A stretch of 64,000 nt of DNA, taken from the NCBI GenBank assembly GCA_027623195.1, contig JAQBUT010000007.1, positions 1 to 64,000 of the forward strand. The letters run 5' to 3'. This stretch comes from Chloroflexota bacterium. GTDB lineage: Bacteria; Chloroflexota; Dehalococcoidia; Lucifugimonadales; JADFKI01. Of the stretch, positions 15,007-57,651 are shown piece by piece. The first letter of the stretch is position 1; every line of letters starts with the position of its first letter. The translations under genes were made by a program, and so were the position numbers. Below the pieces are notes generated by a model that saw nothing but the letters and a program-made list of their open reading frames with translations, was not told the DNA's origin and did not search any database.

Positions 15007-16833
15007 TTAGTTAGCGGTAACGGAGCCCGACACTACAAGAGTGATCGGGACCAGGTCCTGGGCTGGGGTGTCGCTGTCCAGTTGGATGAGCGTCAGATTC
15101 ACCTGGGAGGTGCCTACCGAAAGCAGGTCCACGTTGGCAGTTGCGATGACAGTAGACGTAATCTGCCCCTGCAGTAACTCTGTGGCGTCCGCCACGATCA
15201 CGCGGACAGTGGAGCCAGGCGCGCCGGTCACAAGCTGGAAGCCATATCCTGGCAGCGTCACACCCTGAATCTGCGCCACGGTGGGGTCCTGCACCGACAG
15301 GTCGAATACAAATCCCGAAATGCCGTTAGACACGGTTTCCAGGACGACGTCAACGGACACGGTTTGGCTAACGTTCCCCACTGCGCTGGTCACCGATAAG
15401 ACGGGCGAAGGCGTTGGGGTCGCAGTCGAACCGGCTGGTGGCGTCGAGGTAGATGTTGGCAACGGCGTCGCAGTCGGTGGCGGCGTCGACGTAAACGTAG
15501 GCGTCGGGGTGGCAGTCGGTGGTGGCGTCGACGTGAACGTAGGCAACGGCGTCGGGGTGGCAGTCGGTGGTGGCGTCGATGTAAACGTAGGCAACGGCGT
15601 CGGGGTGGCAGTCGAGCCCGGTGGTGGCGTCGATGTAAACGTCGGCAACGGCGTGGATGTGGGCAAAGGCGTTGGCGTGGGCGTATTCGATATCCCAGTA
15701 AAGGAAACATCGTCGAACCACGCCGTACCGGTGGCAGGAGGTCTTGTCACCAGATAAAGCCTTATCCTTGCGACCGCAGCGCCAGCAGGGGGCGACAGCC
15801 CAACTGCAGATACCTCGACCCACCCATTAGTTCCGAAGAACTCGCCGAGTAAGTCCGTACGAAGTACGCTGGAAGCGTTCAAAGTCTCCGAGCCCGGCAG
15901 TCCTGCTCCATTCAGCCACTGTATCTCAATCGTCGCGTCTGACCAGGTCACACTGGCCGTCTTCAACCAGACCGACACATCGTAGGTACTGCCCACCGTA
16001 GCGGCCAAGTCCTGGTAGACCTCACTGAAGCCCGACGTTCCTACTACGATCTCCTGGGAGTGTGTACCCGAGTGAGCCTGCGTTGTAACTATGGAGCGCC
16101 CGAGAAACGAGGTCTTCTGCCATCCAACGCCACTGTTCTCAAAACCTGGATCGATTACCAGGTTACCGGCCGGCAGTGGCGTAGAAGTAGGGATAGCCGT
16201 TACTGTGGGCGTGGCCGCAGGCGTGCCCACGAGCGTACTGGTCGGAGTCACAGTTGAGGCCACCGTTGGAACGGGCGTAGAGGTAGATGCCGGCGAACCG
16301 CCACCACCGCCACCTCCACCACCACCGCCTAGACGCTTCTTCTTAGGAGTTGGTGTTGCAGTCCTGGTGGCCTTGACCGTCGGACTGGCGGTAGGCCGCT
16401 TGGTCGCTGTCGCGGCAACCGTCGGTATCGAACCGGGCGCACCAACGCTAAAAGTAGGGCCTGCAAATGGCGTCGCGGTTGGAGTGGCACTTGGCCTATC
16501 GTTATCTGGCGACGGCTTTGAGACTCTAGGCGTCGCGGTAGCTGTTGCACGATATCGGATAGGCGTTCGCGTTGCTGTCGCCGTAGAGATAGCCGTGGCT
16601 ACAGGCGCGGGCGTCGCCGAGGCATTGGATAACAGGTTGGGAAGTTTCCCGATAAGGCTCTGGAAAGGAAAGGGCGTGCGAGTAGGGACGGGAGTCCACC
16701 CTAACGGAGCCAGAGTGGGTCTTGCCGCTGCCAGCAAGCTGGGTGGCTGTTTTTGAAATTCGAATCGGCAGGCTGCCAACACAAGGGGAAGGGCCAATGC
16801 CGCGAATATGATCCAGCGACTTACTGAAGTCAA
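15007..16833 (-). CDS. Thr/Pro-rich surface lipoprotein with CBM4-like domain and C-terminal cohesin-like domain
   Basis: Lipobox LVLAAC; PT linkers and poly-Gly; NLVIDPGFE...WFDDV domain; C-terminal beta-sandwich GISGFVFDLSVQDPTVAQI...LIQLDSD. Confidence 0.75.
   Translation of the reverse strand: MTSVSRWIIFAALALPLVLAACRFEFQKQPPSLLAAARPTLAPLGWTPVPTRTPFPFQSLIGKLPNLLSNASATPAPVATAISTATATRTPIRYRATATATPRVSKPSPDNDRPSATPTATPFAGPTFSVGAPGSIPTVAATATKRPTASPTVKATRTATPTPKKKRLGGGGGGGGGGGSPASTSTPVPTVASTVTPTSTLVGTPAATPTVTAIPTSTPLPAGNLVIDPGFENSGVGWQKTSFLGRSIVTTQAHSGTHSQEIVVGTSGFSEVYQDLAATVGSTYDVSVWLKTASVTWSDATIEIQWLNGAGLPGSETLNASSVLRTDLLGEFFGTNGWVEVSAVGLSPPAGAAVARIRLYLVTRPPATGTAWFDDVSFTGISNTPTPTPLPTSTPLPTFTSTPPPGSTATPTPLPTFTSTPPPTATPTPLPTFTSTPPPTATPTPTFTSTPPPTATPLPTSTSTPPAGSTATPTPSPVLSVTSAVGNVSQTVSVDVVLETVSNGISGFVFDLSVQDPTVAQIQGVTLPGYGFQLVTGAPGSTVRVIVADATELLQGQITSTVIATANVDLLSVGTSQVNLTLIQLDSDTPAQDLVPITLVVSGSVTAN
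15410..15685 (-). repeat. Intragenic tandem repeats encoding TPTPLPTFTSTPPP
   Basis: About 5 imperfect 42-54 nt units. Confidence 0.8.
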
Positions 16834-16969
16834 TGGCGTGTACCTAAGGCGGACGAATGCTTCGCCATAGCGTTATCCATGCTGCGTTATAAGTAACCGC
16901 CAGTAGCCTGCTGCAAACTACGCCCTACGTTGGGATATCGGGTGCATAGCAGGGCCGCGAACGGCTTCA

Positions 16970-17464
16970 TCACCATCTTAAGCCCCTGCTGATCAGTAGC
17001 AACTGGCTACAGAGTGATCCGCCTGCCGCAGAGTTGCTCAAGTCAGTTGCTTGCCCCCAACGATATGCCGTGTAAACCGTCACCCCATCTGATTGGCTAC
17101 CTGTTCCACCTGAAGGCAACCTAACAGGTGAACCAGCCGTCAGAAAACCCTCAAGAAGCGTCATCTCAATTACGTAGCTTGGGCGCTCCTGGGAACCCTT
17201 GCCCAGCGTCGCGCAGATTTCTATGCGCGTACCCAGTTTGAGAGTGGCGATTCGCTGGGCAGCCTCCATCTCGTCCTCGCCATCGCGACAGGACGCCGCA
17301 GGCAAGCCCCACATGCCGGGAAATTCATCGTCATCGTCCGGCCTTCGCACTAGAAGAAGGTCAGAATCTACGTCACTGCCTCTTCGAACAACCAGGGCCA
17401 CTGAATGCTTGACCGGCTTGCTTCCGATAACACTACCTCCGAAGGCTCGGACATCCTGGGCCAT
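16970..17464 (-). CDS. NUDIX hydrolase family protein
   Basis: LLVRRP...PGMWGLPAASCRDGEDEMEAAQR (degenerate Nudix box); ATG after GGAGG. Confidence 0.7.
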   Translation of the reverse strand: MAQDVRAFGGSVIGSKPVKHSVALVVRRGSDVDSDLLLVRRPDDDDEFPGMWGLPAASCRDGEDEMEAAQRIATLKLGTRIEICATLGKGSQERPSYVIEMTLLEGFLTAGSPVRLPSGGTGSQSDGVTVYTAYRWGQATDLSNSAAGGSLCSQLLLISRGLRW

Positions 17465-17648
17465 ATATGCCTCCCCCACAAGCGCAGAAAAGGGCTACGC
17501 CCATAGAGTGTCGAATGCTAACATTGAAATTAGGCGGAATCACAATGCGACGAAACTATTATGCGAATCCATCCGTCCACCCTCAGTAATCTTACGATAC
17601 CGGCTACTAGATAATAATCAAGTTACTAACAGAACCCAGGAGTCTGGA

Positions 17649-18720
17649 TTGAATATTCTTGAACATATGCGGACATTCGGTCACGAGCAGTTGGCGATTT
17701 TCAGCGATCCGTCCAGCGGACTGAAGGCGTTCATAGCCATTCATGACACCACGCTGGGGCCTGCCTGCGGAGGCGTCCGCATCTGGCCACATGCCTCCGA
17801 GGACGACGCCATCATGGACGTTCTCCGCCTCTCCCGGGCCATGACGTACAAGTCTGCAGCTGCTGGTCTAGCGTTCGGCGGGGGCAAGGGCCTGGTTATG
17901 GCAAATCCGCATACGGAGAAGAACGAAGCCATGCTTCGCGCATTCGGCAGAAGCGTGGATTCGCTATGCGGGCGATATTACACCACCGAAGACGTAGGTA
18001 TGAAGCCGGAGGACCTGGTGCACATTGCAAAGGAGACCAGGTATGTCGTCGGTCTGCCTCCGGAGATGGGCGGCAGCGGTGACACGTCCCCTCTAACTGG
18101 CCTGGGGGGTATACCTGGGCATGAAGGCAGCGGCGGAGTCCATATGGGGGTCCGACAGCCTTAGCGGAAAGACCGTAGCCATGCAAGGGTTTGGAAACGT
18201 GGCTCGGCAGACCGCGATGCACCTACGACAAGAGAATGTGCGGCTAATCGTAACGGACATAAATGGAGAGGCTATCGAGGAGGCGCGTTCGCTAGGCGCA
18301 ACCATAGTGGCCCCTGACGACATATATGACGTGGAGGCAGACATATTCTCTCCATGTGCCCTGGGCGGCATACTCAATGATGAGACGATACCAAGGCTAA
18401 AGGCGGCACTGGTGGCTGGCGGAGCTAACAACCAACTGCTGGAGGCCAGACATGGCGAAGACCTAAGGAGTAGGGGTATTGTCTACGCGCCGGACTACAT
18501 AATTAACGCAGGTGGAATCATACAGGTGGCGTGCGAGGCCGAGGGTGGGGACATCGCCCAACGTGCCAGGGCCAAAACGGAAGAGATTTTTCAGACTACG
18601 CAACGGGTGCTGGCCATATCCCGCGAACAGGACATACCAACGTCGGAGGCGGCCGACCGTCTGGCCGAGGATAGGCTCAGGCTAGCCAAAGCAAAAGCCC
18701 AGGAAAGCGGCCCCGCGTAA
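17649..18720 (+). pseudogene. Glu/Leu/Phe/Val dehydrogenase (leucine dehydrogenase-like), frameshifted at G6 run 18104-18109
   Basis: IAIHDTTLGPACGG, LSRAMTYK, GGGK in one frame; QGFGNV, FSPCALGG, GGANNQL, YAPDYIINAGG in the next; removing one G gives TGLGVYLGMKAA. Confidence 0.85.
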
Positions 18721-18827
18721 TTACAACAGTCCAATAAACGTTAATATTCGTCCTGCTACGTTGGCTTGAGGCTTGAGCAGCCGCGTCGAAGCCGTTAACA
18801 TACCTGCCACGTTCAACACATGCAGGT

Positions 18828-20210
18828 ATGGCCAAAATGAAATTTGATGCCCAAGCGTACACCGTAAATCGTGTGGTCGTGCTAGGGGCCGGAACCATGG
18901 GCGCTCAGATCGCGGCCCAGGTAGCTGCCAGGGGCATACCTTGTGACCTGCTGGACATGCGCTCCGAAGGTGATCGGCCAAATGGCCTTGCGGAGGAGGC
19001 CAAGGTAAGGCTGTCCAAGGCCCGTCCCTCGGTGCTGGAATCGCCTGCGGACCTTGACCTGATACACCCCGGCAACTTCGACGACGACATGGCGCGAGTG
19101 GCCGAAGCAGATTGGGTCATCGAAGCCATAGTTGAGAGGCCAGAGCCCAAGGCACAACTATGGTCGCGAGTTGGCCAGCATATTGGCGAAAACACGATAG
19201 CCAGTTCCAACACCTCCGGCATACCCATAGCCCAAATAGCCGAGGCCCTGCCGGAGCAAGTCCGCAGCCGCTTCCTGGGTACTCACTTCTTCAACCCGCC
19301 GAGGTACGTTCGACTGCTGGAGCTTATTTCGGCTCCGACCACCGACCCCGCTGTCCTTGAGGCCATCCGGGCCTTTGCATCGGAACGACTGGACAAGGGT
19401 GTGGTTCGGGCTAACGACGTGCCTGGATTTATATCCAACAGAATCGGCACCTACTACTTTCTGAGCGTCCTACACGCGGCCGAAGAATTTGGCTTCTCCG
19501 TCGACGAAGTTGACGCAATAACCGGCCCCCTAATGGGACGGCCCGGCAGCGCCACCTACCGCACGCTGGACCTGGTAGGTCTGGATATTTTTGTGGACAT
19601 CTGTGACAACACCAAGGCCGCGCTGGAAGCATCCAGCGCCGCGAAGGCAGAGGCAGATTCCTTTATCGCCCCTGCACTGGCACGAGAGATGATTAGCCGT
19701 GGCTGGCTAGGCAACAAATCAGGCCAAGGCTTTTACAAAAGAGCAAAGGCAGAGGGCGACTCAACCATTTTCTCGTTACAGACCAGTTCTATGGAATACC
19801 AGCCCAGGCAGCGGGCCGCCTCAGCCACCCTCAAAGAGTTACTGGAAGTCGAAGAAACTGGCGAGCGAATTCGGCGGCTGGTCTCATCAGGTGGACCAAC
19901 GGAGGCGTTGGCCTGGAGGGTATTGTCTCAGCTTATGGCCTACTCAGCATGGAAGCTGGGTGAGGTGGCGGACGACCTCATCAGTATCGACAGGGCCATG
20001 CGCTGGGGCTTCAACTGGGCGCTGGGTCCTTTCGAGACCTGGGACGCCATAGGTATAGCCTACGCCGTAGACCGAATGGCACAGGGCGGGATGGCCCTAC
20101 CCGACTGGGTCGCACGTATGGCATCAACCGGCGATGGCTTCTACAGGGAGCAGGACGGCGCCGTCATGCAGGTTGACTCCAAATTACACTATACGTCGGT
20201 TGACCAGTAG
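18828..20210 (+). CDS. 3-hydroxyacyl-CoA dehydrogenase
   Basis: LGAGTMG, IEAIVE, SSNTSGIPI, THFFNPPRY, DRAMRWGFNW; no C-terminal hydratase domain. Confidence 0.92.
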   Translation: MAKMKFDAQAYTVNRVVVLGAGTMGAQIAAQVAARGIPCDLLDMRSEGDRPNGLAEEAKVRLSKARPSVLESPADLDLIHPGNFDDDMARVAEADWVIEAIVERPEPKAQLWSRVGQHIGENTIASSNTSGIPIAQIAEALPEQVRSRFLGTHFFNPPRYVRLLELISAPTTDPAVLEAIRAFASERLDKGVVRANDVPGFISNRIGTYYFLSVLHAAEEFGFSVDEVDAITGPLMGRPGSATYRTLDLVGLDIFVDICDNTKAALEASSAAKAEADSFIAPALAREMISRGWLGNKSGQGFYKRAKAEGDSTIFSLQTSSMEYQPRQRAASATLKELLEVEETGERIRRLVSSGGPTEALAWRVLSQLMAYSAWKLGEVADDLISIDRAMRWGFNWALGPFETWDAIGIAYAVDRMAQGGMALPDWVARMASTGDGFYREQDGAVMQVDSKLHYTSVDQ

Positions 20211-20283
20211 CTTTAAGAATTGCTAATAACGTAAATGCATTCTTTTTCATGGATTGATAAACAAACCCACTGGAGGGGATACC

Positions 20284-20727
20284 GTGCAAGAGCCGGAGCG
20301 GATCAAACCAACCAAATTAGGCGATTATTTGGCCATTATGACAAAGGCCGTATTCCAGTCGGGAATATCCTGGAAGGTCGTTAATAACAAATGGCCGGAC
20401 ATCCAGGAGGCGTTCCAGGGCTTTGATGCGGAGACGGTGGCAGCGTACGGCGAAAAGGAACTGGACGATCTCACAGGGGATAGGCGGGTGATTCGTAACC
20501 GGCGAAAGCTTGAGGCCATAGTAGGCAACGCCCGCCGTATGGTCGAACTAGACAAGGAGTTCGGCGGCTTCCAGAAGTATCTGCGCTCCCAACCAGACTT
20601 CGAGGCCACGGTGAAAGACATCCGCAAGCAGTTCAAATTCATGGGGCTCACGGGAATTTACTACTTCCTTTATGTTGTGGGTGAAGAGGTCCCGCCACAT
20701 GAGGAGATATTCCCAGGACGTAAATGA
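20284..20727 (+). CDS. DNA-3-methyladenine glycosylase I-like protein (short form)
   Basis: VFQSGISWKVV, AFQGFD, VIRNRRKLEAIVGNAR, FKFMG; GTG after GGAGGGG. Confidence 0.8.
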   Translation: MQEPERIKPTKLGDYLAIMTKAVFQSGISWKVVNNKWPDIQEAFQGFDAETVAAYGEKELDDLTGDRRVIRNRRKLEAIVGNARRMVELDKEFGGFQKYLRSQPDFEATVKDIRKQFKFMGLTGIYYFLYVVGEEVPPHEEIFPGRK

Positions 20728-21383
20728 GCGAGTCCTGCCCTCTCTGCAACAATGGGTCCACGTCGGTGCTGCATAGAGGCGGCAGGGACTCAGGCTTCAG
20801 GGACTTTTTTCATTGCGAAACGTGCGACCTGGTATTCGTTCCGCGAACCCAATTGCTCACTCCCGAGGGGCAGAAGGACCGCTACCTACAGCACAACAAT
20901 GACGTGGACGACCCGGACTACCGCCTGTTCTTAGGCAGGCTCTACTACCAGTTAAAGCCTCACCTCATGACAGGCGCAAAGGGTCTGGAATATGGAAGCG
21001 GCCCCGGACCGGCGCTGGTGGCCATGATGCAGGAGGACGGCTTTGACGTGGATATGTACGATTTCTACTTCCACGCGGATGAGGCTGTCTTCAACAAGAC
21101 TTACGACTTCATCACGTGTACGGAGACCGCCGAGCATTTTTCCGATCCAGCTCTAGAGTTCCAACAACTGGCCGCCATGCTGAGAAGCCCTGGGTGGATG
21201 GGACTAATGACAGGTATGTTGGCCGACTGGTCCCAATTCCCCATCTGGTATTACCATCGGGACCCGACCCACGTAAATTTCTTCAGCCGAAAAACCATGT
21301 CATGGATCGCAAGGAAGCATGACTGGGAGGTTTCTTTCCCCACTGAAAACGTGGCCCTGTTCTTCAATCCCCAGGGGCTATAG
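20724..21383 (+). CDS. Class I SAM-dependent methyltransferase with N-terminal Zn-ribbon
   Basis: CPLC...CETC, HNND, EYGSGPGP, YDFITCTETAEHF, WYYHRDPTHV. Confidence 0.88.
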   Translation: MSESCPLCNNGSTSVLHRGGRDSGFRDFFHCETCDLVFVPRTQLLTPEGQKDRYLQHNNDVDDPDYRLFLGRLYYQLKPHLMTGAKGLEYGSGPGPALVAMMQEDGFDVDMYDFYFHADEAVFNKTYDFITCTETAEHFSDPALEFQQLAAMLRSPGWMGLMTGMLADWSQFPIWYYHRDPTHVNFFSRKTMSWIARKHDWEVSFPTENVALFFNPQGL

Positions 21384-21450
21384 GTCCAAGAACCACTGGC
21401 ATCTGCCAGGCAACATCAAGACCGCCACGGCCTCAGCGCACGTCGCCCCG

Positions 21451-22527: not shown

Positions 22528-22589
22528 ATTTATGGATTCCTAATTTCAGGATATTGAAAATATGCCTTAATAATTTAGAGGTCAGAAAC

Positions 22590-23612: not shown

Positions 23613-23786
23613 GGCCCGCATTATACCCGGCATCAGGCCGTTTACTCAAACTTTTGTTTTCCATAAACGGCTTGCGACATAGATGAGGGCCGGGTGTCGA
23701 CGCCGAAGCAGACCTCCAGTAGTCTCGAAGGCTGCCAGGCGGCCCGGAGTCGGCACTCGTAACTCGGACTCCAACTATATGGTTTT

Positions 23787-24506: not shown

Positions 24507-24631
24507 GGGCTTCTCCTCTCACTTTGGAGCACGCCGTCTCGCACATCGGACATTTCTCTGTCAATCAGGCGTCCGTTGCCGGTCATGTTCACCAAATGTG
24601 CACACATGTTAGAAAAGCCGGGACGCCACTT

Positions 24632-36416: not shown

Positions 36417-37710
36417 ATGCTTGACCGTATGCCCAAAATTCTAACGCTCCTGGTAACTGCGGCGGTGATTTCCGTCGCAGGCGTACTAGTAACGAGCCAA
36501 ATCTCCTGGGCAACGCAGAGGGACACCCCTTCTCAGCAAAAGGCTGGCGGAGCATCCGGAAGCCCCGCGTCCTTTCACGCGCTGCCGGCAAACAAGGTTT
36601 ACTGGGCCGACGCGGGGTTTTCAGTCGATGGCGCGGCCAGTGTTATGCGAGCCGATTTTACCGGGACGCCAGTGGAGAACGGGGCATCTATCGAGGCAGT
36701 TGTCACCGATCGCAAATCCGTCAATGGCGTTGCCGTAGACCCGGCGGGAGGCCGAATTTACTGGTCTGACAACTTCGGTCCTTTCAGGTCAGATCTAAAC
36801 GGAACGACCATTGAGGATCTCCTCCCCCCCCTTCCCGGACGTAGCCTCGGCCAGCATTTTCGCCGACCTCAAAAACGGTAAGGTATACTGGGCATCGCCA
36901 GCGCAACGCAAAGTCCAAAGGGCCAACCTGGACGGCACCAACCCTGAGGACGATTACGCCCTCTTTTTCCCCTTTGCTGCAGGAGTCGCCGTGGACCCGA
37001 TCGGTCAACGTGTCTACTGGGCGAGCAACGGAGACACTCCAGGAGACCTTACAGACGGGAAGATCCTGCGTTCGATAAACCTCGGGATACCGGGTCCCCG
37101 ACTGAACCGGGGAGGCGAACCCGATGGAAACTATGAAATCATCGTGACATCCGTCGCTTCGTCCACGCCAACAAGTCTCAGTGATCCTGCAGGCCTTGCC
37201 CTGGATCTTTCCGCCGGCAAAGTCTACTGGGCAGACCTCACGGGTGGGAAAATACAGAGGGCTAATCTGGATGGCACCAACGCAGAGGACATTCTGACTG
37301 GACTATCGTTGCCGTACGGCATAGCCCTGGACCCAATCAACGGCCACATGTACTGGACGGAGCGAATCATAGCACCAAGGATCGTGCGCGCAGACCTGGA
37401 TGGAAGCAACCAGCAGGTCATTCTGGCAGGTCTAAACGACCCCTGGGGCCTAACCATGGACGTGGACCGTTGCCCTGCCTTGACTAGCGTCACGCCGCTG
37501 GATAACGACGCTGACTGGCGATGTGAGGATATCAATGCCAACGGGAGACAGGACTTCCAGGACGTGGTAGCGCTATTTCAGGACCTATCGGCTGCAGGCG
37601 ATCCTGCCAAGCAGTTCTACTTCGACTTCAACAGCAATAATGGCGTGGACTTCAATGACGTTGTAACGCTGTTCCAGGACCTGGCTACACTGGTGGGGGT
37701 GCTGCCCTAA
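36417..37710 (+). pseudogene. Secreted YWTD-like beta-propeller protein with C-terminal dockerin-like domain, frameshifted at C8 run 36824-36831
   Basis: Signal peptide; KVYWAD, RIYWSD, KVYWAS, HMYWTE and RANLDGT repeats continue across two frames; duplicated EF-hand-like DxNxNGxxDFxDVVxLFQDL. Confidence 0.8.
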
Positions 37711-42748: not shown

Positions 42749-44157
42749 GTGAAAAATTCGACCATCTCTATAGCCGTTATATTGGTTACTTTACTACTCA
42801 TTTTCTCCGTCTCTCGAGTCGAGGGAACTTCATTAAATTCCGTTATAGATTTCGAGTCGTTGCCAGATGGCGCATTTGTTTCCGAGGTCGCTTCGGGCCA
42901 TGGCCTAAACGGGAAGAAGTGACGGGTTCCATTTCGATTAGCGCGGTTAATCCTGCCAGGCAGGGCCGTAACGCAGCTATGATTTTCAACGCGGACTGCC
43001 CCGGCAAGTGCACCGGAAACGAAAAAACCTTGAAATCCGGCGAGACTGGCAAGGCATTGATAGCATCAGCGGACTTCGACTCCAACGATCCCGACAGTGC
43101 GGACCTGACTAGCCTGGTCTTCGACTTCGACTTTTCTAAATGGGGCTCTGGCGAGGTAGCCGTGAGAAGTTTCGATCTCATCAACGGCTCAGGTGTCTTC
43201 AAATACGCCAGCAACTCCCCCTCCACCCTGGTTCTGTACACCGGCGGAGAGAACGGCAACATCGTCGCATCCATCGACGTTCCTCTGGATAACCTGCCTG
43301 GCCTAGAGAACCTTTCCGTGGGCGTCGCCGGCGTGGATTTCATGCGGCTAACCATTGACGGACCGGCAGCGCTAGACAACATAGATGTCATACCCACATG
43401 TTCCGGCAGAGCCGCCACGCTAATCGGCACCGACGAAGCCGATGTGCTGAATGGAACACCGGGGCCAGATGTAATCATCGGCCTGGGCGGTAATGACACC
43501 ATTCGAGGCTTCGGAGGAAACGATGTAATCTGCGGGGGGGACGGCAGCGACCGCATATACGGCGACGACGGAAATGACATTATCTTGGGCCAAGGCCTCA
43601 ACGACAACATCTTCGGTGGCAAGGGCAACGACGCTATCGACGGCGGCGACGGCAAAGACACCATAGCTGGCGAGGCAGGCAACGATACGCTGTCCGGTGG
43701 CCCAGACGACGACACCATTCGGGGCGGCGACCACAACGACATAATTAAGGGCGAAGACGGCCAGGACAGCCTTTACGGTGGCGCTGGCAATGACTCCATT
43801 CGCGGTGGTTCCGGCAACGACGACCTGCGAGGAGAGGGAGGTGCCGACTCCTTTTGGGGAGGCGAAGGCTCTGATCGACTTTTCGGAAGTACCGGCGCGG
43901 ACAGGATGTTCGGGGAAGGTGGGCCAGACGTCCTGATCGGAGGCAGTGGCGACGATCGCATCAGTGGCGGCGATGGCAACGATCTCCTCATGGGCGGCGA
44001 CGGAAATGACGATCTCGAGGGCGATCGCGGCAATGACAGCCTGAAGGGCGACCGAGGCGACGACGTTCTCAAAGGCGGACCCGATGACGACGTCGTGGAC
44101 GGCGGATCAGGATACGACAGATGTAGCAGAGGTCCAGACTTCAGAGGTTGCGAGTAA
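42749..44157 (+). pseudogene. Secreted protein with hemolysin-type (RTX) Ca-binding repeats, split near 42911-42922
   Basis: Signal peptide and [10 protein letters not shown] start in one frame, remainder in another; adding one G gives GLNGEEVTGSI; many GGxGxDxL nonapeptides. Confidence 0.75.
43420..44125 (+). repeat. RTX nonapeptide repeat region
   Basis: More than 20 GGxGxDx(I/L)x-type units. Confidence 0.85.
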
Positions 44158-45379: not shown

Positions 45380-45401
45380 TGCACGCGTATCACCTCGCGA
45401 T

Positions 45402-46613: not shown

Positions 46614-46622
46614 GTCCATCTG

Positions 46623-49694: not shown

Positions 49695-49887
49695 GGGGTG
49701 TCCTCCCTGTTGGTGGTTTTTTAGCTATATGACTAGATGAGGGGAATATAGCACATGGGCCGGTGGCGGGTCATCAATCTGTGGAAGGCTACCGCACCTG
49801 ACAAAATCTGCTGAGATGGCATCATTCGAGGTACGTTTTGCTTGGGGCACCCCAGTAAGACGATTCAAACTGATTCGGAGTTGCAAT

Positions 49888-50542: not shown

Positions 50543-50547
50543 CAAAT

Positions 50548-51561
50548 CTATTCCGCCGACACCCTCACCAGCAGCTTCCCAAAATTCTCGCCGCGCATCA
50601 TGCCTATGAACGCGGCGGGGGCGTTTTCGATGCCTTCTACAACGTCCTCTTTGTACTTGATCTTACCTTCGCGAATCCAGGCGGCGAGGCGCCGCCTGGC
50701 CTCATCGTGGTGCTGGCTAAACTGAAAGACCAAAAAACCCTCCATGCGGGCCTGGTGTGTCGTAAGCAGAAGCACGTTACGCGGCCCCATCGCCGGCTCG
50801 GCCAGGTTGTACTGCGAAATCTGACCGCAGATAGCAATCCGCGCGAAGTCGGCCAGGTTCTCCATGACAGCGTCCGTAATATCTCCGCCCACGTTGTCGA
50901 AGTAAACGTCGATTCCCAGAGGACATACCGAGGCCAACTCGGCCCGGACGTCTTGTGTCTTGTAGTTGATGCCCACGTCGAAACCCAGGTCGTTAACGAT
51001 GTAGTCGATCTTCTCTTGAGTTCCGGCGATGCCTACCACCCGACAGCCCATAATCTTGGCGATCTGCCCCACTATCTGCCCCACCGCGCCTGACGCTGCC
51101 GATACCACAACTGTATCGCCGGGCTTGGGCTCGCAGACGCTCAGCAGGCCAAAGTAAGCCGTCATGCCGGGCATACCTAAAATCCCCAGCGCCGTCTGGA
51201 GAGGCCCCAGGGCGGAGTCCACTCGACGTAGGTTGCGCCCATCGGACGTGGCGTACTCTTGCCAGCCTAGCGGCCCTTCCACCAGTTCGCCCACAGCAAA
51301 CGCCGGAGTCCTCGACACCACCACGCGACCAACGACTCCCCCAACGATAACGTTGCCCAGTTGCACCGACGGCGCGTAGGACTGTACGTCCCGCATGCGA
51401 CCGCGCATGTACGGATCCAGCGAAAGCCATATGACTTTTATCAGCACCTCACCTTCTCGCGGCTGAGGAATATGCTCCTCCACCAACTCAAAGTCCGACA
51501 TTTCTGGATAGGCTGCCGGGCGAGACTTTAGGGTGATTTTTCGATTGGATTCCTGCGTCAT
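50548..51561 (-). CDS. NADP-dependent oxidoreductase (CurA/prostaglandin reductase-like MDR)
   Basis: LSLDPYMRGRM, GMPGMTAYFGL, SAASGAVG, YFDNVGG, GENFGK. Confidence 0.93.
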   Translation of the reverse strand: MTQESNRKITLKSRPAAYPEMSDFELVEEHIPQPREGEVLIKVIWLSLDPYMRGRMRDVQSYAPSVQLGNVIVGGVVGRVVVSRTPAFAVGELVEGPLGWQEYATSDGRNLRRVDSALGPLQTALGILGMPGMTAYFGLLSVCEPKPGDTVVVSAASGAVGQIVGQIAKIMGCRVVGIAGTQEKIDYIVNDLGFDVGINYKTQDVRAELASVCPLGIDVYFDNVGGDITDAVMENLADFARIAICGQISQYNLAEPAMGPRNVLLLTTHQARMEGFLVFQFSQHHDEARRRLAAWIREGKIKYKEDVVEGIENAPAAFIGMMRGENFGKLLVRVSAE

Positions 51562-51751
51562 TCTTCCCCATTAATTGCTGGCTTTGCGATCATAACCTGG
51601 AACATCATAGACCTTGGGCCTCCCCCTGTCGAACGAGTGTTGTCAGGGGAGCATGGTGGTCGCTTGACTGCGAATACCGCCCACAATACCATGCCGCCAT
51701 CACCCGTATTGATGCATCGCCAATCACACAATACCTGTAAGGAGAGCCCGC

Positions 51752-54274
51752 ATGCCCGACTACCAACCACTGGACCTGTCTTCGCTCTGCAACGCCGGCC
51801 GGGAGATTCTGGGCAGCCGTGAACGAGCGCCGATAGGACTCCAGATGTTTCACGGCCTACCATTTCTCGTGGGCCGCGACGGCGCTGAGCCAGACGACCG
51901 TAGCTTCCTACTGCTAAACGAGGCCACGGGCGGCATGACGATACCTGTGGCCGACGTGGCGCACAACGTTATCTTCGCGCACAGGGTGCTGGACACGGAA
52001 ATACCCGAGGGCGGGCCTGTCGGCAAAGACGTAGCCGAGTATGTAATTCATTACTCCAATGGGCAGGAGTCCCGAATACCAGTTCGAGAGCGGTTCGAGA
52101 TAGGCTTAATGCCTGCAGACGAGGATGGCACGCGTGCCAACATCGCACTGAGAAGCGTGCCCTTCCTGGCTCTGGGCAACGTGAAGGAGGCCTTACCTCA
52201 GCGTTACGAAGGGCCGTGGGAGGAGACGGGCCGCCGCCAGACGGAGCTTTCCGCGCTGGGAGCATCTGAGCACAGTTACTTCCTCTGGGCCTGGGAGAAC
52301 CCCCGCCCAGCTGACGGGATACAGTCCATAGAAATATTGCCGATGGGGCCGTCGTTCATGATTGCGGCTGTGACCCTGGGAAAGATCGACGAACGCCCAT
52401 TCGTCACCCAGGGAAGAAGGGAGGCCCAGGTCACGCTGATCGACCCAGAGCAGGCCGACCGCCGATTCGACGTAGAGGTCGAGGTGGACCGTGGCCTGGC
52501 CACATTTGTGCATGCCCTGCCACACGCCTCGGCAGACGAGTTCGTGGCCGATTCGATGAAGGGCTATGGAGAGCCTCTGAATTTGCGTTCCAGCCCTGCC
52601 TACGTGGAAATCGCCGCCACGCCTTCGGCAACTGTAACAGTCAACCAGGCAGGGGAAACCGTTGGCGAGGTGAACTGGAAAGAGGTGGAGAGCCAGGGCT
52701 CTGCTTCCACTCCCTCAGTTCGCATCGACCTGCTGGACAGGGGCCGCAACTGGGTCCACGTCACGGTGTTGGACGACGACACCGGCCAGCCGGTCCCGTG
52801 CCGATTGCACTTTCGCTCGCCAGAGGGAATACCCTACCAGCCCCACGGACACCACAACCAGGTGAACTCCAACATGGGCACTTGGCACGTCGACGTGGGC
52901 GGCGACGTTCGCTTGGGCCAGATAACATATGCCTACATCGACGGCAAATGCCAGGGCTGGCTGCCTCGCGGAGAGGTCATCGTAGACGTGGCGCGCGGCT
53001 TCGAATACGAACCCCTGCGGGAGCGAATCACTATCGAGCCGGGCCAACAAGACCTGAAGTTACGCCTGAAGCAATGGACAAACATGAACGCCAAACGCTG
53101 GTTCAGCGGCGACTCCCACGTGCACTTCCTGTCTACCCAGGGTAGTCACTTCGAGTCGCAGGGCGAGGACCTTAACGTGGTCAACCTGCTGCAGTCCCAA
53201 TGGGGCAGCCTTTACACCAACACCGAGGACTTCACGGGCAGGCCCAGCGTATCCGGCGATGGCAGCAACATCGTGTACACCTCTCAGGAGAACCGGCAGC
53301 ACTTTCTCGGCCATATGATTCTCTGGGGACTAAAGGAGCCGGTCATGCCGTGGTGCAGCGACGGCCCCAACGAGGGCGAGCTGGCCGGGATCATGCAAAC
53401 GACCATGAGCCACTGGGCAGACGCCGCGCATGGCCAGGGGGGTCGCGTTGTCCTTCCTCACTTCCCACATCCGAATGGCGAGCCCGCAACCTTGATAGCC
53501 ACAGGCAGGGTGGACGGCGTGGAGATGATCCGTCACGAGCGTTTCAACCACGTCGAATACTACCGATACCTGAACTGCGGCTACAGGCTCCCCCTGGTGG
53601 GCGGCACTGACAAGATGAGCAACGAAGTGCCGGTGGGTCTCTATCGCACTTACGCATACGTTCCTGATGAACAAGAATTCAACTACGAGAACTGGTGCGC
53701 GGCGGTGTCCGCAGGCCGCACGTTCCTAAGCGGAGGCCCGCTCTTGGACTTCTCTGTAGACGGCCACCAGATCGGCGATACAGTCCATATGTCCAGCGCA
53801 GGGACAGTGGAGGTGCGGGCCTCTGCGGAGAGCATTCTGCCTATCCATACGCTGCAGTTGGTTCAAAACGGACGTGTGATTGCTTCCACTGAGGACCTTT
53901 CTGGCACGCGCCGACTGGAGCTGCGGGAGTCTGTCCAGATCGAGGCCAATTCTTGGCTGGCGGTGCGCTGCGGTGGCCCCAACTACATCGACAGCACCCC
54001 GCACTACGACGTCTGGAACCGGGGAGTATTCGCCCACACTTCGCCTATATACATGGCCGTCGGTGGCGACTGGGAGATGTACGATCAGGACGCGGCTCAG
54101 TACATGCTTACTATGATAGAGGGAGGCATGTCCTACGTCCGCCAGACCTCGCACCAGCACGCGCCGGCCTCCGTTACGCACCACCACGGCGAGGACGACC
54201 ACATGGCCTACCTGCTGCGGCCCTTCCTGGAGGCTCACGAGGCCATGCTGGCCAGAATGCACCGGCAGCGCTGA
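51752..54274 (+). CDS. CehA/McbA family metallohydrolase
   Basis: ARGFEYEP, WFSGDSHVH, QENRQHFLGH, YYRYLNCGYRLPLVGGTD, GRTFLSGGP, AHTSPIY. Confidence 0.85.
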   Translation: MPDYQPLDLSSLCNAGREILGSRERAPIGLQMFHGLPFLVGRDGAEPDDRSFLLLNEATGGMTIPVADVAHNVIFAHRVLDTEIPEGGPVGKDVAEYVIHYSNGQESRIPVRERFEIGLMPADEDGTRANIALRSVPFLALGNVKEALPQRYEGPWEETGRRQTELSALGASEHSYFLWAWENPRPADGIQSIEILPMGPSFMIAAVTLGKIDERPFVTQGRREAQVTLIDPEQADRRFDVEVEVDRGLATFVHALPHASADEFVADSMKGYGEPLNLRSSPAYVEIAATPSATVTVNQAGETVGEVNWKEVESQGSASTPSVRIDLLDRGRNWVHVTVLDDDTGQPVPCRLHFRSPEGIPYQPHGHHNQVNSNMGTWHVDVGGDVRLGQITYAYIDGKCQGWLPRGEVIVDVARGFEYEPLRERITIEPGQQDLKLRLKQWTNMNAKRWFSGDSHVHFLSTQGSHFESQGEDLNVVNLLQSQWGSLYTNTEDFTGRPSVSGDGSNIVYTSQENRQHFLGHMILWGLKEPVMPWCSDGPNEGELAGIMQTTMSHWADAAHGQGGRVVLPHFPHPNGEPATLIATGRVDGVEMIRHERFNHVEYYRYLNCGYRLPLVGGTDKMSNEVPVGLYRTYAYVPDEQEFNYENWCAAVSAGRTFLSGGPLLDFSVDGHQIGDTVHMSSAGTVEVRASAESILPIHTLQLVQNGRVIASTEDLSGTRRLELRESVQIEANSWLAVRCGGPNYIDSTPHYDVWNRGVFAHTSPIYMAVGGDWEMYDQDAAQYMLTMIEGGMSYVRQTSHQHAPASVTHHHGEDDHMAYLLRPFLEAHEAMLARMHRQR

Positions 54275-54413
54275 TAGAAGTGCCTGACCCAAAATTGCTG
54301 ACCGGTTGCAATCACACACGAATTACGGCTTTCCGCAAAGTACGACTGTTTCGCTATGGTCCTTCGAAGAGATAGTGGCGAACCAGACGTCCTAAGACGA
54401 CATTTTGCAAAAC

Positions 54414-54447
54414 AAAAAAAGAGAGGCCCGGTGCTCCGGACCTCTCT
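54414..54447 (-). terminator. Intrinsic terminator
   Basis: Minus strand GAGAGGTCCGG-AGCA-CCGGGCCTCTC followed by T7. Confidence 0.85.
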
Positions 54448-54740
54448 TCGCCTTATTCAGTTGTCGTACCCTTCGGCCACACACTCCCGGCATTGAATGC
54501 CAGATAAGCTCGTCCTACTAATTTATCTTCGGACTGTACAGCTTTAGTTCTCTATTTAAGTGAGCCTCAGGTGTTGGACTCCCCTGCTGGCTGTGTCCAC
54601 CTTGCTTACCCCTCAAGCTCGCCAGCAGGGGCCATTAAAGGGAACTTCCACGCATGATTCATAATGAATACTCGCTCCAAATGCCACCCCTTTCTGGCCT
54701 TTCGCCGATTTCCCTGGGGAAATCTCATTTACTTAGGTCA
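54414..54740 (-). ncRNA. Putative ~330-nt small RNA, possibly encoding a 24-aa peptide (54606-54680)
   Basis: Promoter TTGACC-17-TAAATT, terminator, internal 11-bp inverted repeat, SD-like AAAGGGGTG before TTG. Confidence 0.5.
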
Positions 54741-54745
54741 CCTCT

Positions 54746-54774
54746 AATTTACGCCTGTACACTGGTGGGGTCAA
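54746..54774 (-). promoter_or_regulatory. Sigma70-type promoter
   Basis: TTGACC (54774-54769), 17-nt spacer, TAAATT (54751-54746). Confidence 0.6.
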
Positions 54775-54837
54775 TTGGGTTGGCGTGAGGAAAATGTGAG
54801 GATGGTATGAAAGGCTTCTATCAGTTCGTGAAGGCAT

Positions 54838-55272
54838 CTAAGCCTTGACTTCCACTCGTGCCTTCAGCGCCTCGTTCATGTCGTAAAAGCCCTGTTCTAC
54901 CTTACGTAACATGCCGCCCATTAGAGGCACCATTATCCCGCCGAAGTGCTCACCGTGGACGAACGTGACTTGTCCTTCAGCTTGGGGCTCAATCATGAAG
55001 TAGTGCTGGCCAGTGAATAGAATCTTATGCAAGAACACGCCGACCCAACGCAATTCCCTGTTGGGTTCCACAGTCATAAGCCTGGTCTTGAATCCCATCG
55101 CTTTGCCACCGGGCGGTTCCATAAAGATGTCCAGATGGCCGCCTTGCCGCAATTCACCGCTGGCTCTGGTTATAAATGGATTCCACTCCGGGAATTTCTC
55201 CAGGTCTGTCAGCACACTCCAGACGTTTTCGGCTGAGGCGTTAATTGCAATCTCCTTACGTATTTGTTTCAT
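54838..55272 (-). CDS. SRPBCC (polyketide cyclase/dehydrase-like) domain protein
   Basis: INASAENVWSVLTD...PEWNPF, ELRW, GQHYF, MNEALKARVE. Confidence 0.88.
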   Translation of the reverse strand: MKQIRKEIAINASAENVWSVLTDLEKFPEWNPFITRASGELRQGGHLDIFMEPPGGKAMGFKTRLMTVEPNRELRWVGVFLHKILFTGQHYFMIEPQAEGQVTFVHGEHFGGIMVPLMGGMLRKVEQGFYDMNEALKARVEVKA

Positions 55273-55307
55273 GATTTCGCTCTCCTGACCAGCGTAAAAT
55301 TAGGTTG

Positions 55308-56390
55308 TTACAACTCAGACTCAATTTTCCTTCGCAGCCTGCGGATCCACCACAACAACATGCTATTGGAACGACCGCTGATTAAGGAAAAGGCGATAGC
55401 CCGATAGATCCAGCCCCGGCTAACTTTAGAAGGCCTTTCCGGGCTCAGCCATGCCTGATTAGCGGCCAGACTCGCCAGCGTTCCCAGTCCAATAACAACA
55501 GGCCAAAGCGCAGCCAGTCTTAGCCTCAGGTTCCGTCGTGGGATGGCCAGAACATACCGCTTGGCTGCTTCGTAATGCTCCAACGTCAGCCTGATACCGT
55601 TCACCAACACAGGGCGGGCCTGGAGGCCTCTGCCGGGATCAAGAAGGTCCGAAGGCGTCAGGCCCAGTTCCATTAGCGCATCCGATGCCAGGTAGCATCG
55701 TCCAATACGCAGGTCTTTCGGAACATCCCTGAGCACGTTCGTCATCTGAAGAGCCTTCCCGAACCGCACTCCCAATCTGGACATTTCAACCACATCCCAG
55801 TGGCGTAGCGATGGCGTATAAGACACCATGATTGCCGTCCAGAACTCACCTACGCATCCGGCGACATGGTACACGTAGTCGTCCAAGGCAATGGCGTTGC
55901 TCAGGGCAATAGCATCTCCCGAGTTTTCATCGGGGAAGGTCCGAAGGTCTATCTCCATTCCCCGCGTCAACCCAACGACCACGGACCGCACGGCGTCCCC
56001 ATCGTTATCAGGCAAACGCTCCATAAGCGCGAACGCCTCCGGTAAGGACCGTAAAAGCTCCACTTCCCTGGTTACCGGCTGAAGTTCATCCAGAGAGGCC
56101 CCTATATTTCGCAACATCTTGGGATTGGAGGGACCAGAAACCTGCGCCCTGAAATCCAAAATATGCCTCAGCCGTTCATCTGGGGGAACTAGGGTTGTGT
56201 CTGCAATGGTATCCGCCGCCCTGGCCAACAGGTACGCCAGACCAACAGGCTCGCGCACGCCCCTGGGAAGTATCCGCAGTGTTAAGTAAAAGGACCTGGA
56301 CACCCCTTTGAGGAGATCGGTGAGGAGGCGATGCTTATCGTCATGAGAAACGACGGGGGGCCTGTCGGAAGAAACCTTGTCGTCGGACAT
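55308..56390 (-). CDS. Squalene/phytoene synthase family protein
   Basis: VSRSF, YLLARAADTIAD, YVYHVAGCVGEFW, GKALQMTNVLRDVPKDL, GRCYL. Confidence 0.9.
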   Translation of the reverse strand: MSDDKVSSDRPPVVSHDDKHRLLTDLLKGVSRSFYLTLRILPRGVREPVGLAYLLARAADTIADTTLVPPDERLRHILDFRAQVSGPSNPKMLRNIGASLDELQPVTREVELLRSLPEAFALMERLPDNDGDAVRSVVVGLTRGMEIDLRTFPDENSGDAIALSNAIALDDYVYHVAGCVGEFWTAIMVSYTPSLRHWDVVEMSRLGVRFGKALQMTNVLRDVPKDLRIGRCYLASDALMELGLTPSDLLDPGRGLQARPVLVNGIRLTLEHYEAAKRYVLAIPRRNLRLRLAALWPVVIGLGTLASLAANQAWLSPERPSKVSRGWIYRAIAFSLISGRSNSMLLWWIRRLRRKIESEL

Positions 56391-56400
56391 CTGATACAGC

Positions 56401-56943
56401 CTAGTTATTCAGGCCGCGCTGGAGACCGCGCACGTAGGAGATTTGCCCAAGATGCTGGTCCTCCTCACCGATAAGCTGCCGATACATCCTGGCCATGGAA
56501 AAGCTACGGAATCGGCTGACAGTACCGGCGGTCTCTGGAAACGGAGTGCGGTTGGGGACGTAATCGAAGTCGCTCTCGCCGAGACCTCGTAGAAACGCCA
56601 AGGTCTCCTGTCGGACGGAGGTGAAGTACTCCTGCAATAGGTCCTTCGGGAGGTCCGGGAAAGCGGCCAACTCCTCCACGGACAATCCGAAGCCACTGCC
56701 CTTCTCAGCCAGGCCCAGCCTCTCATGCCAGCGGTCACGCTGCCAAACTGCAGACTCGCCTTTGCCGAACGAGTTGGTCCACCCATCCTCTACCCTGGCC
56801 ACATGCCAGTAAATAAAGGCGATTGAGTTGGCCTCCGGACTTGGCCTCCATGCCATTTCCAGGCTGGTCAACGGCTCAATCGCCACATTGACCCGGCCAT
56901 AATAATCCTCAAGGGTCTCTTCTATAAAATCGCCCAGCCTCAT
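56401..56943 (-). CDS. DinB family protein
   Basis: WRPSPEANSIAFIYWHVARVED, QHLGQISY. Confidence 0.85.
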   Translation of the reverse strand: MRLGDFIEETLEDYYGRVNVAIEPLTSLEMAWRPSPEANSIAFIYWHVARVEDGWTNSFGKGESAVWQRDRWHERLGLAEKGSGFGLSVEELAAFPDLPKDLLQEYFTSVRQETLAFLRGLGESDFDYVPNRTPFPETAGTVSRFRSFSMARMYRQLIGEEDQHLGQISYVRGLQRGLNN

Positions 56944-57111
56944 GTCCGCTCCGTAGAATCTTAATGTATGTATACGCGCGCAACCGGAATTATCTCACGT
57001 TTGCGAGGGTTAATGTCGGCTGAGCACGGACACGGCAACGGGCGCGCCTGTAAAAGATTAAGGAGTACCGAGGAAAGCAACTCTTCGGGAAAAGCCCTGC
57101 CAAAAGAGACT

Positions 57112-57651
57112 CTAGTTAACTGTAATTTTACCTGACATCAATTGAGGCTTCACGGCATTACCGTCGTCGTCGTCCACGCTGCGAATTTCCAACAGAAGGT
57201 CCGAGGTGCCGGCTTTGAGCAACTCGATATCCAAGGTGGCCAATAGGGCCTCTTTGATGTCGCCTTCCAGAAGACCAGGCAAGTCCACTGCCGTGATGTC
57301 TACTGAATCCGCCGGCAGTTCACTTACTATGGTCAGATTGAAATCCGGCAAGCTGACGTTGGATATTCGTGCAATGCTGGGATCAGCGACCGATACGACC
57401 AGTGCGTAACCGGCTATACCTGTCTTGGCATCGTATATGTGTATGGGGATGGGCACCACCTGTCCTACATTTCCAGAGCCTTCGGCTACTTGTATGCGGG
57501 AGCCGGTGACCGTGATGGCTGGCGGCGTAGTCGGCACTACTACTACAGCGGTGGTGGGCGCAGTAGGAGGGCCGGGGTCATCCGGTCCGCCAAAGCAGGC
57601 CACGGCCGCGAGCATGATTGTGGTAGCGATTAACAGGAAAAAAGTGCGCAT
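57112..57651 (-). CDS. Lipoprotein with a single cohesin-like domain
   Basis: Lipobox LAAVAC, PT linker, GIAGYALVVSVADPSIARI...LPADSV...VDDDDG. Confidence 0.75.
   Translation of the reverse strand: MRTFFLLIATTIMLAAVACFGGPDDPGPPTAPTTAVVVVPTTPPAITVTGSRIQVAEGSGNVGQVVPIPIHIYDAKTGIAGYALVVSVADPSIARISNVSLPDFNLTIVSELPADSVDITAVDLPGLLEGDIKEALLATLDIELLKAGTSDLLLEIRSVDDDDGNAVKPQLMSGKITVN

What the first reader, a model, noticed from the sequence alone, without database searches (positions are those of the whole stretch)
15007..57651. Dispersed non-cellulosomal cohesin-dockerin surface display system of archaeal style
Seen: two unlinked lipoproteins end in mutually similar ~125-aa beta-sandwich domains (about 15007-15400: GISGFVFDLSVQDPTVAQIQGVTLP...QLDSD; about 57112-57500: GIAGYALVVSVADPSIARISNVSLP...SVDDDDG). 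A secreted beta-propeller ends in a duplicated Ca-loop/helix (EDINANGRQDFQDVVALFQDL and DFNSNNGVDFNDVVTLFQDL, about 37492-37689). Known: these patterns resemble cohesins and dockerins, especially those of haloarchaea and methanogens. Inference: membrane-anchored single-cohesin adaptors, one on a long Thr/Pro stalk with a CBM-like domain and one short, capture dockerin-tagged cargo. No glycoside hydrolase is present in the window, so this would be a modular surface complex unrelated to cellulolysis.
Basis: partly seen in the sequence, partly recalled or inferred. Interest (0 to 1): 0.85.

Follow-up and report, generated by a model that had tools for sequence, protein, structure and literature searches.

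The report
Archaeal-type plug-and-socket surface tether, partly broken
An aquatic Chloroflexota bacterium encodes scattered, predicted membrane-anchored "socket" (cohesin) proteins and "plug" (dockerin)-tagged secreted proteins most like those of archaea, which likely snap together to hang binding proteins and sugar-cutting enzymes on the cell surface, but in this strain both plug-bearing genes are broken.

Summary
Observation confirmed. The two beta-sandwich domains are homologous (33% identity, E 1e-17). One was modelled and has a cohesin fold (Z 16; Archaeoglobus non-cellulosomal cohesin tied first). The Ca-loop pair models as a dockerin, not an EF-hand. It belongs to an archaeal three-loop subfamily; haloarchaeal sequences are nearest in a quick tree. 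The host is a likely SAR202-type Dehalococcoidia genome with 6 cohesins and 2 dockerins; both modules occur in the same 4 of 27 family genomes.

Two corrections. First, the cargo includes glycoside hydrolases: a GH30-like/cohesin/PKD/dockerin gene lies 15 kb past the window, and a relative has a GH5 version. Second, both dockerin genes of this assembly are broken (a frameshift in a C8 run; a deletion of about 29 kb). Contigs of two samples carry both lesions, while a related population is intact.

Best reading: anchored single-cohesin sockets capture dockerin-tagged cargo (inferred, 0.65), and the cargo side is decaying here. Between the two populations one cohesin core and some propeller blades are replaced while the dockerins are identical. 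Non-cellulosomal pairs are known in archaea. I found no paper on SAR202, but this scan has noted similar systems in other Dehalococcoidia genomes.

The parts
15007..16833 (-). 608-aa predicted lipoprotein: lipobox (Cys22), Thr/Pro/Gly stalk, CBM-like module, Pro/Thr linker, C-terminal cohesin
   Evidence: a mosaic, no full-length orthologue found
15688..16167 (-). CBM4_9/CBM16-like beta-sandwich (ligand unknown)
   Evidence: weak Pfam CBM_4_9 E 0.11; weak PDB hit to a module of an S-layer-associated endoglucanase, E 0.5; ESM Atlas 0.95 to CBM_4_9 clusters
15010..15405 (-). cohesin module 1
   Evidence: 33% identical to module 2, E 1e-17; Pfam Cohesin E 0.2 over positions 4-137 of 139; fold inferred by homology, not modelled
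36417..37710 (+). secreted YWTD beta-propeller + dockerin gene, split by a +1 frameshift
   Evidence: intact orthologues P0033 (433 aa) and G002:C293
36824..36831 (+). C8 run at the frameshift; a possible slippage site (untested)
   Evidence: same letters in contigs of runs X1 and X2; 12 C/G runs of 8 or more in the genome
37471..37707 (+). archaeal-type dockerin: extra N-terminal DxDxDxxxE loop, two 12-residue Ca loops (37528-37563, 37624-37659), two long helices and a short one between
57112..57651 (-). 179-aa predicted lipoprotein (Cys19) with one cohesin
   Evidence: lipobox Cys in 7 of 7 homologues P0002-P0008; syntenic next to a DinB gene in 3 of 3 relatives
57115..57501 (-). cohesin module 2 (modelled)
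   Evidence: AlphaFold2 pLDDT 95; Foldseek and VIA top hits are cohesins

Best explanation
These genes encode predicted lipid-anchored single-cohesin sockets and dockerin-tagged secreted cargo of an archaeal subfamily, which likely bind each other in a calcium-dependent way to hold binding proteins and glycoside hydrolases on the cell surface; in this population both dockerin genes are broken, so the cargo side is likely lost or switched off. Steps: (1) Sec export and lipidation at the lipobox Cys (inferred from sequence). (2) The short adaptor holds its cohesin near the membrane; the long one lifts a CBM-like module and a cohesin on a Pro/Thr stalk (architecture shown, geometry inferred). (3) Cargo folds its dockerin on Ca2+ (ligand residues shown, binding inferred). 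(4) Dockerin helices dock on the conserved cohesin face (inferred from homology). (5) Cohesin-PKD-dockerin proteins could add a further socket and so extend short chains without a scaffoldin (inferred). The modules were probably acquired from archaea (direction not tested).
For: Fold: VIA ranks 1-19 are all cohesins (best Z 16.4, rmsd 2.0 over 126 residues; 2xdh Z 16.1; best non-cohesin Z 11.3); Foldseek E 7e-12. Dockerin model: VIA ranks 1-12 are all dockerins (Z 6.7, rmsd 2.5 over 56; next unrelated 3.2). The paralogue at C35:78943-79167 passes the Pfam Dockerin_1 cut-off. Co-occurrence: both modules in the same 4 of 27 family genomes and neither in the other 23. 5 of 5 archaeal genomes picked for the dockerin also hold the cohesin. 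76 of 120 dockerin hits carry the cohesin on the same chain, and 119 of 120 have the dockerin at the C-terminus. Division of labour among 150 cohesin hits: a C-terminal membrane anchor in 16 of 89 without a dockerin and 0 of 61 with one; with loose lipoboxes 32/89 vs 6/61, p 2.5e-4. The most conserved non-core residues over 249 domains (G28, G31, D73, D110-D112, G114) lie on strands 3, 6 and 8, the dockerin-binding sheet of solved cohesins (strand roles recalled). Archaeal pairs are reported to bind (PMC9012536 passages; PMC9705933 passages).
Against: Cohesins outnumber dockerins 22 to 7 in the four genomes. The small cohesin genes stay intact while dockerin genes are broken in G000 (2 of 2), G001 (1 of 1) and partly G004 (1 of 2), which a strict pairing model does not predict. 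The four positive genomes are two genera, so the co-occurrence may be a single event. The genes are unlinked. One cohesin core differs (49/96 identical) between populations whose dockerin is identical. The dockerin fold scores are middling (no Foldseek hit at E<=0.001). Lipid anchors rest on motifs only.
Confidence: 0.65

Rival explanations
1. The solo cohesins now work without dockerins, as small surface adhesion or spacer modules (binding glycan, an S-layer or another protein), and the dockerin-bearing genes are a decaying leftover.
For: 3:1 excess of cohesins. The short lipoprotein is intact and syntenic in 4 of 4 genomes while dockerin genes are broken. 3 of 7 cohesin/dockerin genes are broken in G000 against 8 of 183 control genes (p 0.0045, post hoc). 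The cohesin fold also resembles adhesin and pilin domains at Z 9-11.
Against: No genome among 27 in the family keeps cohesins without at least a dockerin remnant. A related population has intact versions of both cargo genes. Conservation is concentrated on the presumed binding face. Broken genes may be recent, population-level losses.
Confidence: 0.2
2. The main unit is the cohesin-(PKD)-dockerin protein, which binds itself or its own kind to build chains or an extracellular mesh; the lipoproteins only anchor or cap it, and the propeller is a minor passenger.
For: Cohesin and dockerin share a chain in 76 of 120 dockerin hits. Small signal-peptide-cohesin-PKD-dockerin proteins of about 335 aa with no other domain are common (P0019, P0049, P0065, P0083). 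22 of 150 cohesin hits have three or more cohesins (the ranking favours multi-domain proteins).
Against: 44 of 120 dockerin hits, the window's propeller among them, have no cohesin, and one methanogen has 45 dockerins for 8 cohesins: ordinary tagged cargo. The reading overlaps with the best explanation.
Confidence: 0.12
3. The domains are unrelated Ig-like and EF-hand modules and the resemblance is superficial.
For: Window domains are below the Pfam cut-offs; EF-hand proteins appear among sequence hits.
Against: Sequence profiles hit only cohesins in the PDB (5 of 5 and 4 of 4 weak hits). Fold searches rank cohesins and dockerins first; the first EF-hand is at Foldseek rank 26 with TM 0.30.
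Confidence: 0.03

Closest known systems
Archaeoglobus fulgidus non-cellulosomal cohesin-dockerin pair (cohesin PDB 2xdh; Bayer 1999, Haimovitz 2008, Voronov-Goldman 2011, seen only through citing papers)
   Same: Cohesin fold (Z 16.1, rmsd 1.9 over 120 residues); no multi-cohesin scaffoldin; no cellulolytic context; archaeal affinity.
   Different: Only 16-17% identity. Bacterial host with lipoprotein anchors; genes dispersed (the A. fulgidus genes are adjacent, recalled); propeller and GH cargo. The A. fulgidus dockerin was not compared.
Dockerin/cohesin proteins of ANME and methanogens (PMC9012536, PMC5244752; passages read)
   Same: The same dockerin and cohesin subfamily is found in Methanophagales, Methanomicrobiales and haloarchaea; proposed surface attachment; function untested.
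   Different: ANME have scaffoldin-like proteins with up to 5 cohesins and ABC binding proteins as cargo. Here there are single cohesins, few dockerins and lipoprotein anchors; some unnamed family members instead end in PGF/PEF-CTERM-like or transmembrane tails (motif names recalled).
Clostridial type I cohesin-dockerin with single-cohesin anchors and adaptors (C. thermocellum OlpA/OlpC, R. flavefaciens ScaC, C. acetobutylicum 6kgc, C. perfringens GH84/GH33 modules)
   Same: Best structural matches for both modules; single-cohesin anchor logic; dockerin at the C-terminus of GH cargo.
   Different: No scaffoldin and no SLH anchor seen; GH48/GH9 not seen on any dockerin here. The dockerin has a third N-terminal acidic loop, and Phe at positions 10 and 17 of both repeats in place of Ser/Thr and Lys/Arg (clostridial pattern recalled).
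Archaellum of Chloroflexota (PMC12488501, passages read)
   Same: Precedent for archaeal surface machinery transferred to Dehalococcoidia; this genome has an archaellin match.
   Different: Unrelated machinery; context only.

Membership tests
Cohesin module | Nine-stranded jelly-roll beta-sandwich of about 130-140 aa | tested here: met
   Model of 57115-57501, pLDDT 95; ranks 1-19 cohesins, Z up to 16.4. Module 1 by homology only.
Cohesin module | Pfam PF00963 score above the curated cut-off | tested here: not met
   12.3 bits and no hit for the two window domains; best in the genome 21.3 vs 24.1. A divergent subfamily; 3 of the 120 dockerin-query hits (not counting a UniRef label) were checked no further.
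Cohesin module | Conserved dockerin-binding face on strands 8-3-6-5 | tested here: inconclusive
   Conserved non-core residues lie on strands 3, 6 and 8 (mean entropy 1.9-2.4 vs 2.9-3.2 for strands 1, 2, 4, 5, 9; strand 7 is 2.5). They may be structural, and the face assignment is recalled.
Dockerin module | Two 12-residue Ca loops with D/N at positions 1, 3, 5, 9, 12, each followed by a helix | tested here: met
   DINANGRQDFQD and DFNSNNGVDFND; ligands at least 90% conserved in 118 sequences; helices 29-42, 48-51, 61-75.
Dockerin module | Dockerin (F-hand) rather than EF-hand packing | tested here: met
   VIA ranks 1-12 dockerins, Z 6.7 vs 3.2 for unrelated; Foldseek top rows dockerins but E 0.24 or worse.
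Dockerin module | Pfam PF00404 above the cut-off | tested here: inconclusive
   Window copy 15.1 vs 22.9 bits; its 47%-identical paralogue passes at 29.1.
Cohesin-dockerin system | Ca-dependent high-affinity cohesin-dockerin binding | not testable with these tools
   Needs a bench assay.
Cohesin-dockerin system | Both modules encoded, exported and intact in one genome | tested here: inconclusive
   Not met in G000 as assembled (both dockerin genes broken; 87% complete); met in G002 and indicated for the X3/X4 population.
Cellulosome | Multi-cohesin scaffoldin | tested here: not met
   All six cohesins of G000 are on separate ORFs; the same holds in G001, G002 and G004.
Cellulosome | Many dockerin-bearing cellulases | tested here: not met
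   Two dockerins in the genome, on a propeller and a GH30-like protein.
Archaeal-type (halo/methanogen) dockerin subfamily | PxDxDGDGxxED pre-loop followed by DxNGNGRxDFxDVVxLF twice | tested here: met
   Consensus of 118 sequences, 38-46% identity to archaeal copies; groups with haloarchaeal copies, SH-aLRT 96, quick tree of 76 columns.

The most novel reading that the evidence does not exclude
SAR202 bacteria took a complete cohesin-dockerin toolkit from haloarchaea and use it as a scaffoldin-free, self-extending surface code. Lipoprotein sockets anchor chains of cohesin-PKD-dockerin units. Near-identical populations swap cohesin cores and propeller blades and switch dockerin cargo off (C8 slippage, deletion) to vary what the cell displays to phage, grazers or polysaccharide particles.
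Probability: 0.15. Interest if true: 0.8.

Novelty: new variant of a known kind. Interest (0 to 1): 0.5.

Why it matters
The role of cohesins and dockerins outside cellulosomes is described as unknown (PMC5244752, PMC9012536). This is a small, fully listable case (6 sockets, 2 plugs) in a lineage reported to lack peptidoglycan (PMC10444878, for other SAR202 genomes), with natural intact and broken alleles. It defines a large subfamily that Pfam mostly misses (2,164 representatives at 50% identity). It links an archaeal tag to glycoside hydrolases in SAR202-type cells and would be a further archaeal surface system in Chloroflexota beside the archaellum. It may also supply orthogonal cohesin-dockerin pairs for engineering.

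Tried and rejected
Complex prediction of the short-lipoprotein cohesin with the window dockerin gave no verdict (score 0.04, mark 0.32, partner fold uncertain); it is used neither for nor against. The long-stalk cohesin was not modelled or docked. No RNA holder was listed, so expression is unchecked. Assembly error as the cause of the frameshift and of the C35:80380 junction was largely rejected: contigs of X1 (possibly the source) and X2 (same study) carry both without differences. Contigs cannot show minority alleles, so phase variation is untested. My first idea of an inversion or chimera at C35:80380 was rejected: an X3 contig shows a deletion of about 29 kb. The C5 frameshift and the G001/G004 stops were not checked against reads. 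A viral source was not supported: no dockerin relative among 600 pattern hits in viral contigs; the cohesin profile could not be searched there. NCBIfam gave nothing useful. The cluster look-up for multi-cohesin relatives could not be made, so their taxa are unknown. The careful tree did not finish, there was no bacterial outgroup and test_one_clade was not run, so donor and direction are not shown. Peer et al. 2009 was not held. General hypervariability of cohesins was not supported: in 26 pairwise comparisons of other small cohesin-PKD-dockerin proteins the cohesin identity was mostly within about 10 points of PKD and dockerin, and 3 larger ones were more diverged throughout; the swap is one observed case.
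Full report
1. Observation. The window is G000:C35:1-64000 of a 3.0-Mb, 65-contig assembly, 87% complete. The three elements are as described. The two C-terminal domains align at 33% over 110 residues, E 1e-17. Both proteins start with a hydrophobic stretch and a lipobox-like Cys; for the short one the Cys is kept in 7 of 7 homologues. The propeller gene runs 36417-37710 but is split by a +1 frameshift in a C8 run (36824-36831), so the dockerin-bearing ORF lacks the signal peptide. Close homologues are labelled Chloroflexi or Dehalococcoidia. The genome has 46 luciferase-like monooxygenase matches, the expansion described for SAR202 group III (PMC10444878, passages), so SAR202 is an inference.

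2. What the modules are. Pfam gives only sub-threshold Cohesin and Dockerin_1 hits for the window domains. Profiles of 6 and of 20 related domains hit only cohesins in the PDB, weakly (5 of 5, 4 of 4). An AlphaFold2 model of the short lipoprotein's domain (80 sequences, pLDDT 95) matches cohesins: Foldseek E 7e-12; VIA ranks 1-19 all cohesins, led by 6kgc (Z 16.4) and the A. fulgidus non-cellulosomal cohesin 2xdh (Z 16.1), best non-cohesin 11.3. The long lipoprotein's domain was not modelled. The Ca-loop module (118 sequences, pLDDT 97) has dockerins at VIA ranks 1-12 (Z 6.7, middling, but twice the best unrelated row) and at the top of a non-significant Foldseek list. Its paralogue passes the Pfam cut-off. 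Both loops have ligands at positions 1, 3, 5, 9 and 12. An extra N-terminal acidic loop and Phe at positions 10 and 17 of both repeats mark the subfamily. The CBM-like module has only weak support, from three searches.

3. Genome inventory. There are six cohesins on six ORFs (C35 three, C5, C9 two) and two dockerins. The second dockerin, 15 kb past the window end, closes a GH30-like/cohesin/PKD/dockerin protein. Its intact allele P0018 matches xylanase 1nof at E 8e-7 (GH30 label recalled). G004 has GH5-ThuA-cohesin-PKD-dockerin. At least 8 of 120 dockerin hits carry GH5, GH16, apiosidase-like or deacetylase domains. The system is therefore not a cellulosome, but it is not free of glycan-active cargo either.

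4. Distribution. Both modules occur in the same 4 of 27 family genomes (two genera) and were not found in 23, many of them closed (first seen as 4 of 41). In 300 other genomes of the class, strong matches (E<1e-15) were 2 for the cohesin and 3 for the dockerin, with 9 weaker genomes each. Of 76 named loci for the dockerin, 74 are archaeal (best 80 of 220; 30 of 64 parts scanned). 5 of 5 of those archaea tested also have the cohesin. In a quick tree (129 rows, 76 columns, midpoint root) the 13 Chloroflexota-labelled dockerins fall in one group of 25 (SH-aLRT 92; 11 rows unlabelled, 1 labelled Nitrososphaera) that joins four haloarchaeal rows (96). Patchiness and affinity suggest transfer from archaea; the direction was not tested. 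The cohesin profile finds 2,164 representatives. Among the best 150, C-terminal membrane anchors occur in 16 of 89 dockerin-free and 0 of 61 dockerin-bearing proteins, and 76 of 120 dockerin hits also carry a cohesin: the anchor/cargo/adaptor split expected of a pairing system.

5. Decay and swapping. Three of the seven cohesin/dockerin genes of G000 are broken: the propeller frameshift, loss of the 5' part of the GH30-like gene, and a frameshift in the C5 stalk-cohesin gene. In the control, 8 of 183 G002 genes with a comparable G000 match looked broken (248 queried from 404 kb; uncurated, some are shadow ORFs; p 0.0045, post hoc). Contigs of runs X1 and X2 carry the frameshift and the junction. 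X3 and X4, from another study, have intact genes, and the X3 contig has about 29 kb more at the junction. G001 has two in-frame stops; G004 has one stop and two degenerate modules; G002 shows none in 5 genes, two of them cut by contig ends. Between the two populations the GH30-like protein is identical in PKD (92/92) and dockerin (76/76) but 49/96 in the cohesin core, a 257-bp replaced block. The propeller keeps its dockerin 79/79 while residues 59-200 are 82/142. The long lipoprotein is itself a mosaic: its CBM-like module (121/160) and its cohesin (93/132) are found in two different proteins.

6. Mechanism. Most likely (0.65) the lipoproteins are single sockets at two heights that capture Ca-folded dockerins on secreted cargo, with cohesin-PKD-dockerin proteins as extenders. 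Shown: sequences, architectures, distribution, lesions. Predicted: folds. Inferred: lipidation, Ca binding, pairing, chain formation, archaeal origin. The main difficulty is that solo cohesins persist intact and syntenic while dockerin genes break, which leaves 0.2 for a dockerin-independent role.

7. Known and new. Non-cellulosomal cohesins and dockerins are known, archaeal pairs are reported to bind, and their function is open (PMC9012536 and PMC5244752, passages; PMC12484212 and PMC9705933, passages). Peer 2009, Bayer 1999, Haimovitz 2008 and Voronov-Goldman 2011 were seen only as citations. Seven literature searches (listings only) showed no paper on such a system in SAR202 or Dehalococcoidia. 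PMC10444878 has no mention of either module and PMC11557425 none of Chloroflexota in the main text. Supplements were not read and subscription papers are not held. Earlier notes of this scan describe cohesin-dockerin loci in at least 27 other Dehalococcoidia genomes, plus a SAR202 case; none matched this sequence or genome. They are unchecked and not counted as support.

8. Verdict. Real, and a new variant of a known kind: an archaeal-type, scaffoldin-free cohesin-dockerin set in a likely SAR202 lineage, with glycoside hydrolase and propeller cargo, whose plug genes are broken in this population. Interest 0.5.

Noticed in passing
G000:C35:78940-80430 (-) (L001:6938-8431), outside the window: GH30-like/cohesin/PKD/dockerin gene that lost its 5' part, with half of a neighbouring C-methyltransferase gene, in a deletion of about 29 kb relative to an X3 contig; a GH30-like lipoprotein paralogue at C35:84387-85840 is frameshifted too (intact in X3, X4).
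   Followed up: yes
L001:7481-7739 and window 36524-37050: Blocks of the cohesin core and of propeller blades are replaced between populations that are about 99% identical in the flanks of the first block; the dockerins are unchanged.
   Followed up: partly
G000:C9:78763-79365 (+) and C9:105422-105994 (+): Two further solo cohesins with signal peptides but no lipobox; the first ends in a Gly/Lys-rich basic tail that is conserved in G001.
   Followed up: partly
G000:C5:5695-7112 (+): Second stalked cohesin lipoprotein, frameshifted; a similar gene has an in-frame stop in G001 and is open in G004.
   Followed up: partly
window 17199-18720 (+): Glu/Leu/Phe/Val dehydrogenase split over two overlapping ORFs near a G7 run at about 18103: a further frameshift, outside the system.
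   Followed up: no
window 42919-44157 (+): 412-aa protein with 11 RTX Ca-binding repeat matches and an unknown N-terminal domain.
   Followed up: no
window 5842-6774 (-): Protein with a Tat-like signal (RRQVIK) and a weak disaggregatase-related repeat match, a domain known from Methanosarcina surface proteins (recalled).
   Followed up: no
window 60082-61032 (+): Secreted subtilase-like protein without a Pfam hit that stops early; looks truncated.
   Followed up: no
window 14289-14921 (+): XRE/S24 (LexA/CI-like) regulator convergent with the long cohesin lipoprotein gene.
   Followed up: no
G000:C32:7292-8272 (-) and C17:22540-22956 (+): Archaellin and sortase family matches above the cut-off.
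   Followed up: no
P0009: 236-aa metagenome protein joining this cohesin to an N-terminal part that by eye resembles small phage structural proteins; no Pfam hit.
   Followed up: partly
G341 (genome of L065, Methanosphaerula subterraneus): 45 dockerins and 8 cohesins of this subfamily in one methanogen.
   Followed up: no
L001:8065-8094 and 13870-13899: Run X1 contigs branch at both places into similar foreign sequence, possibly an insertion element in part of the population.
   Followed up: no
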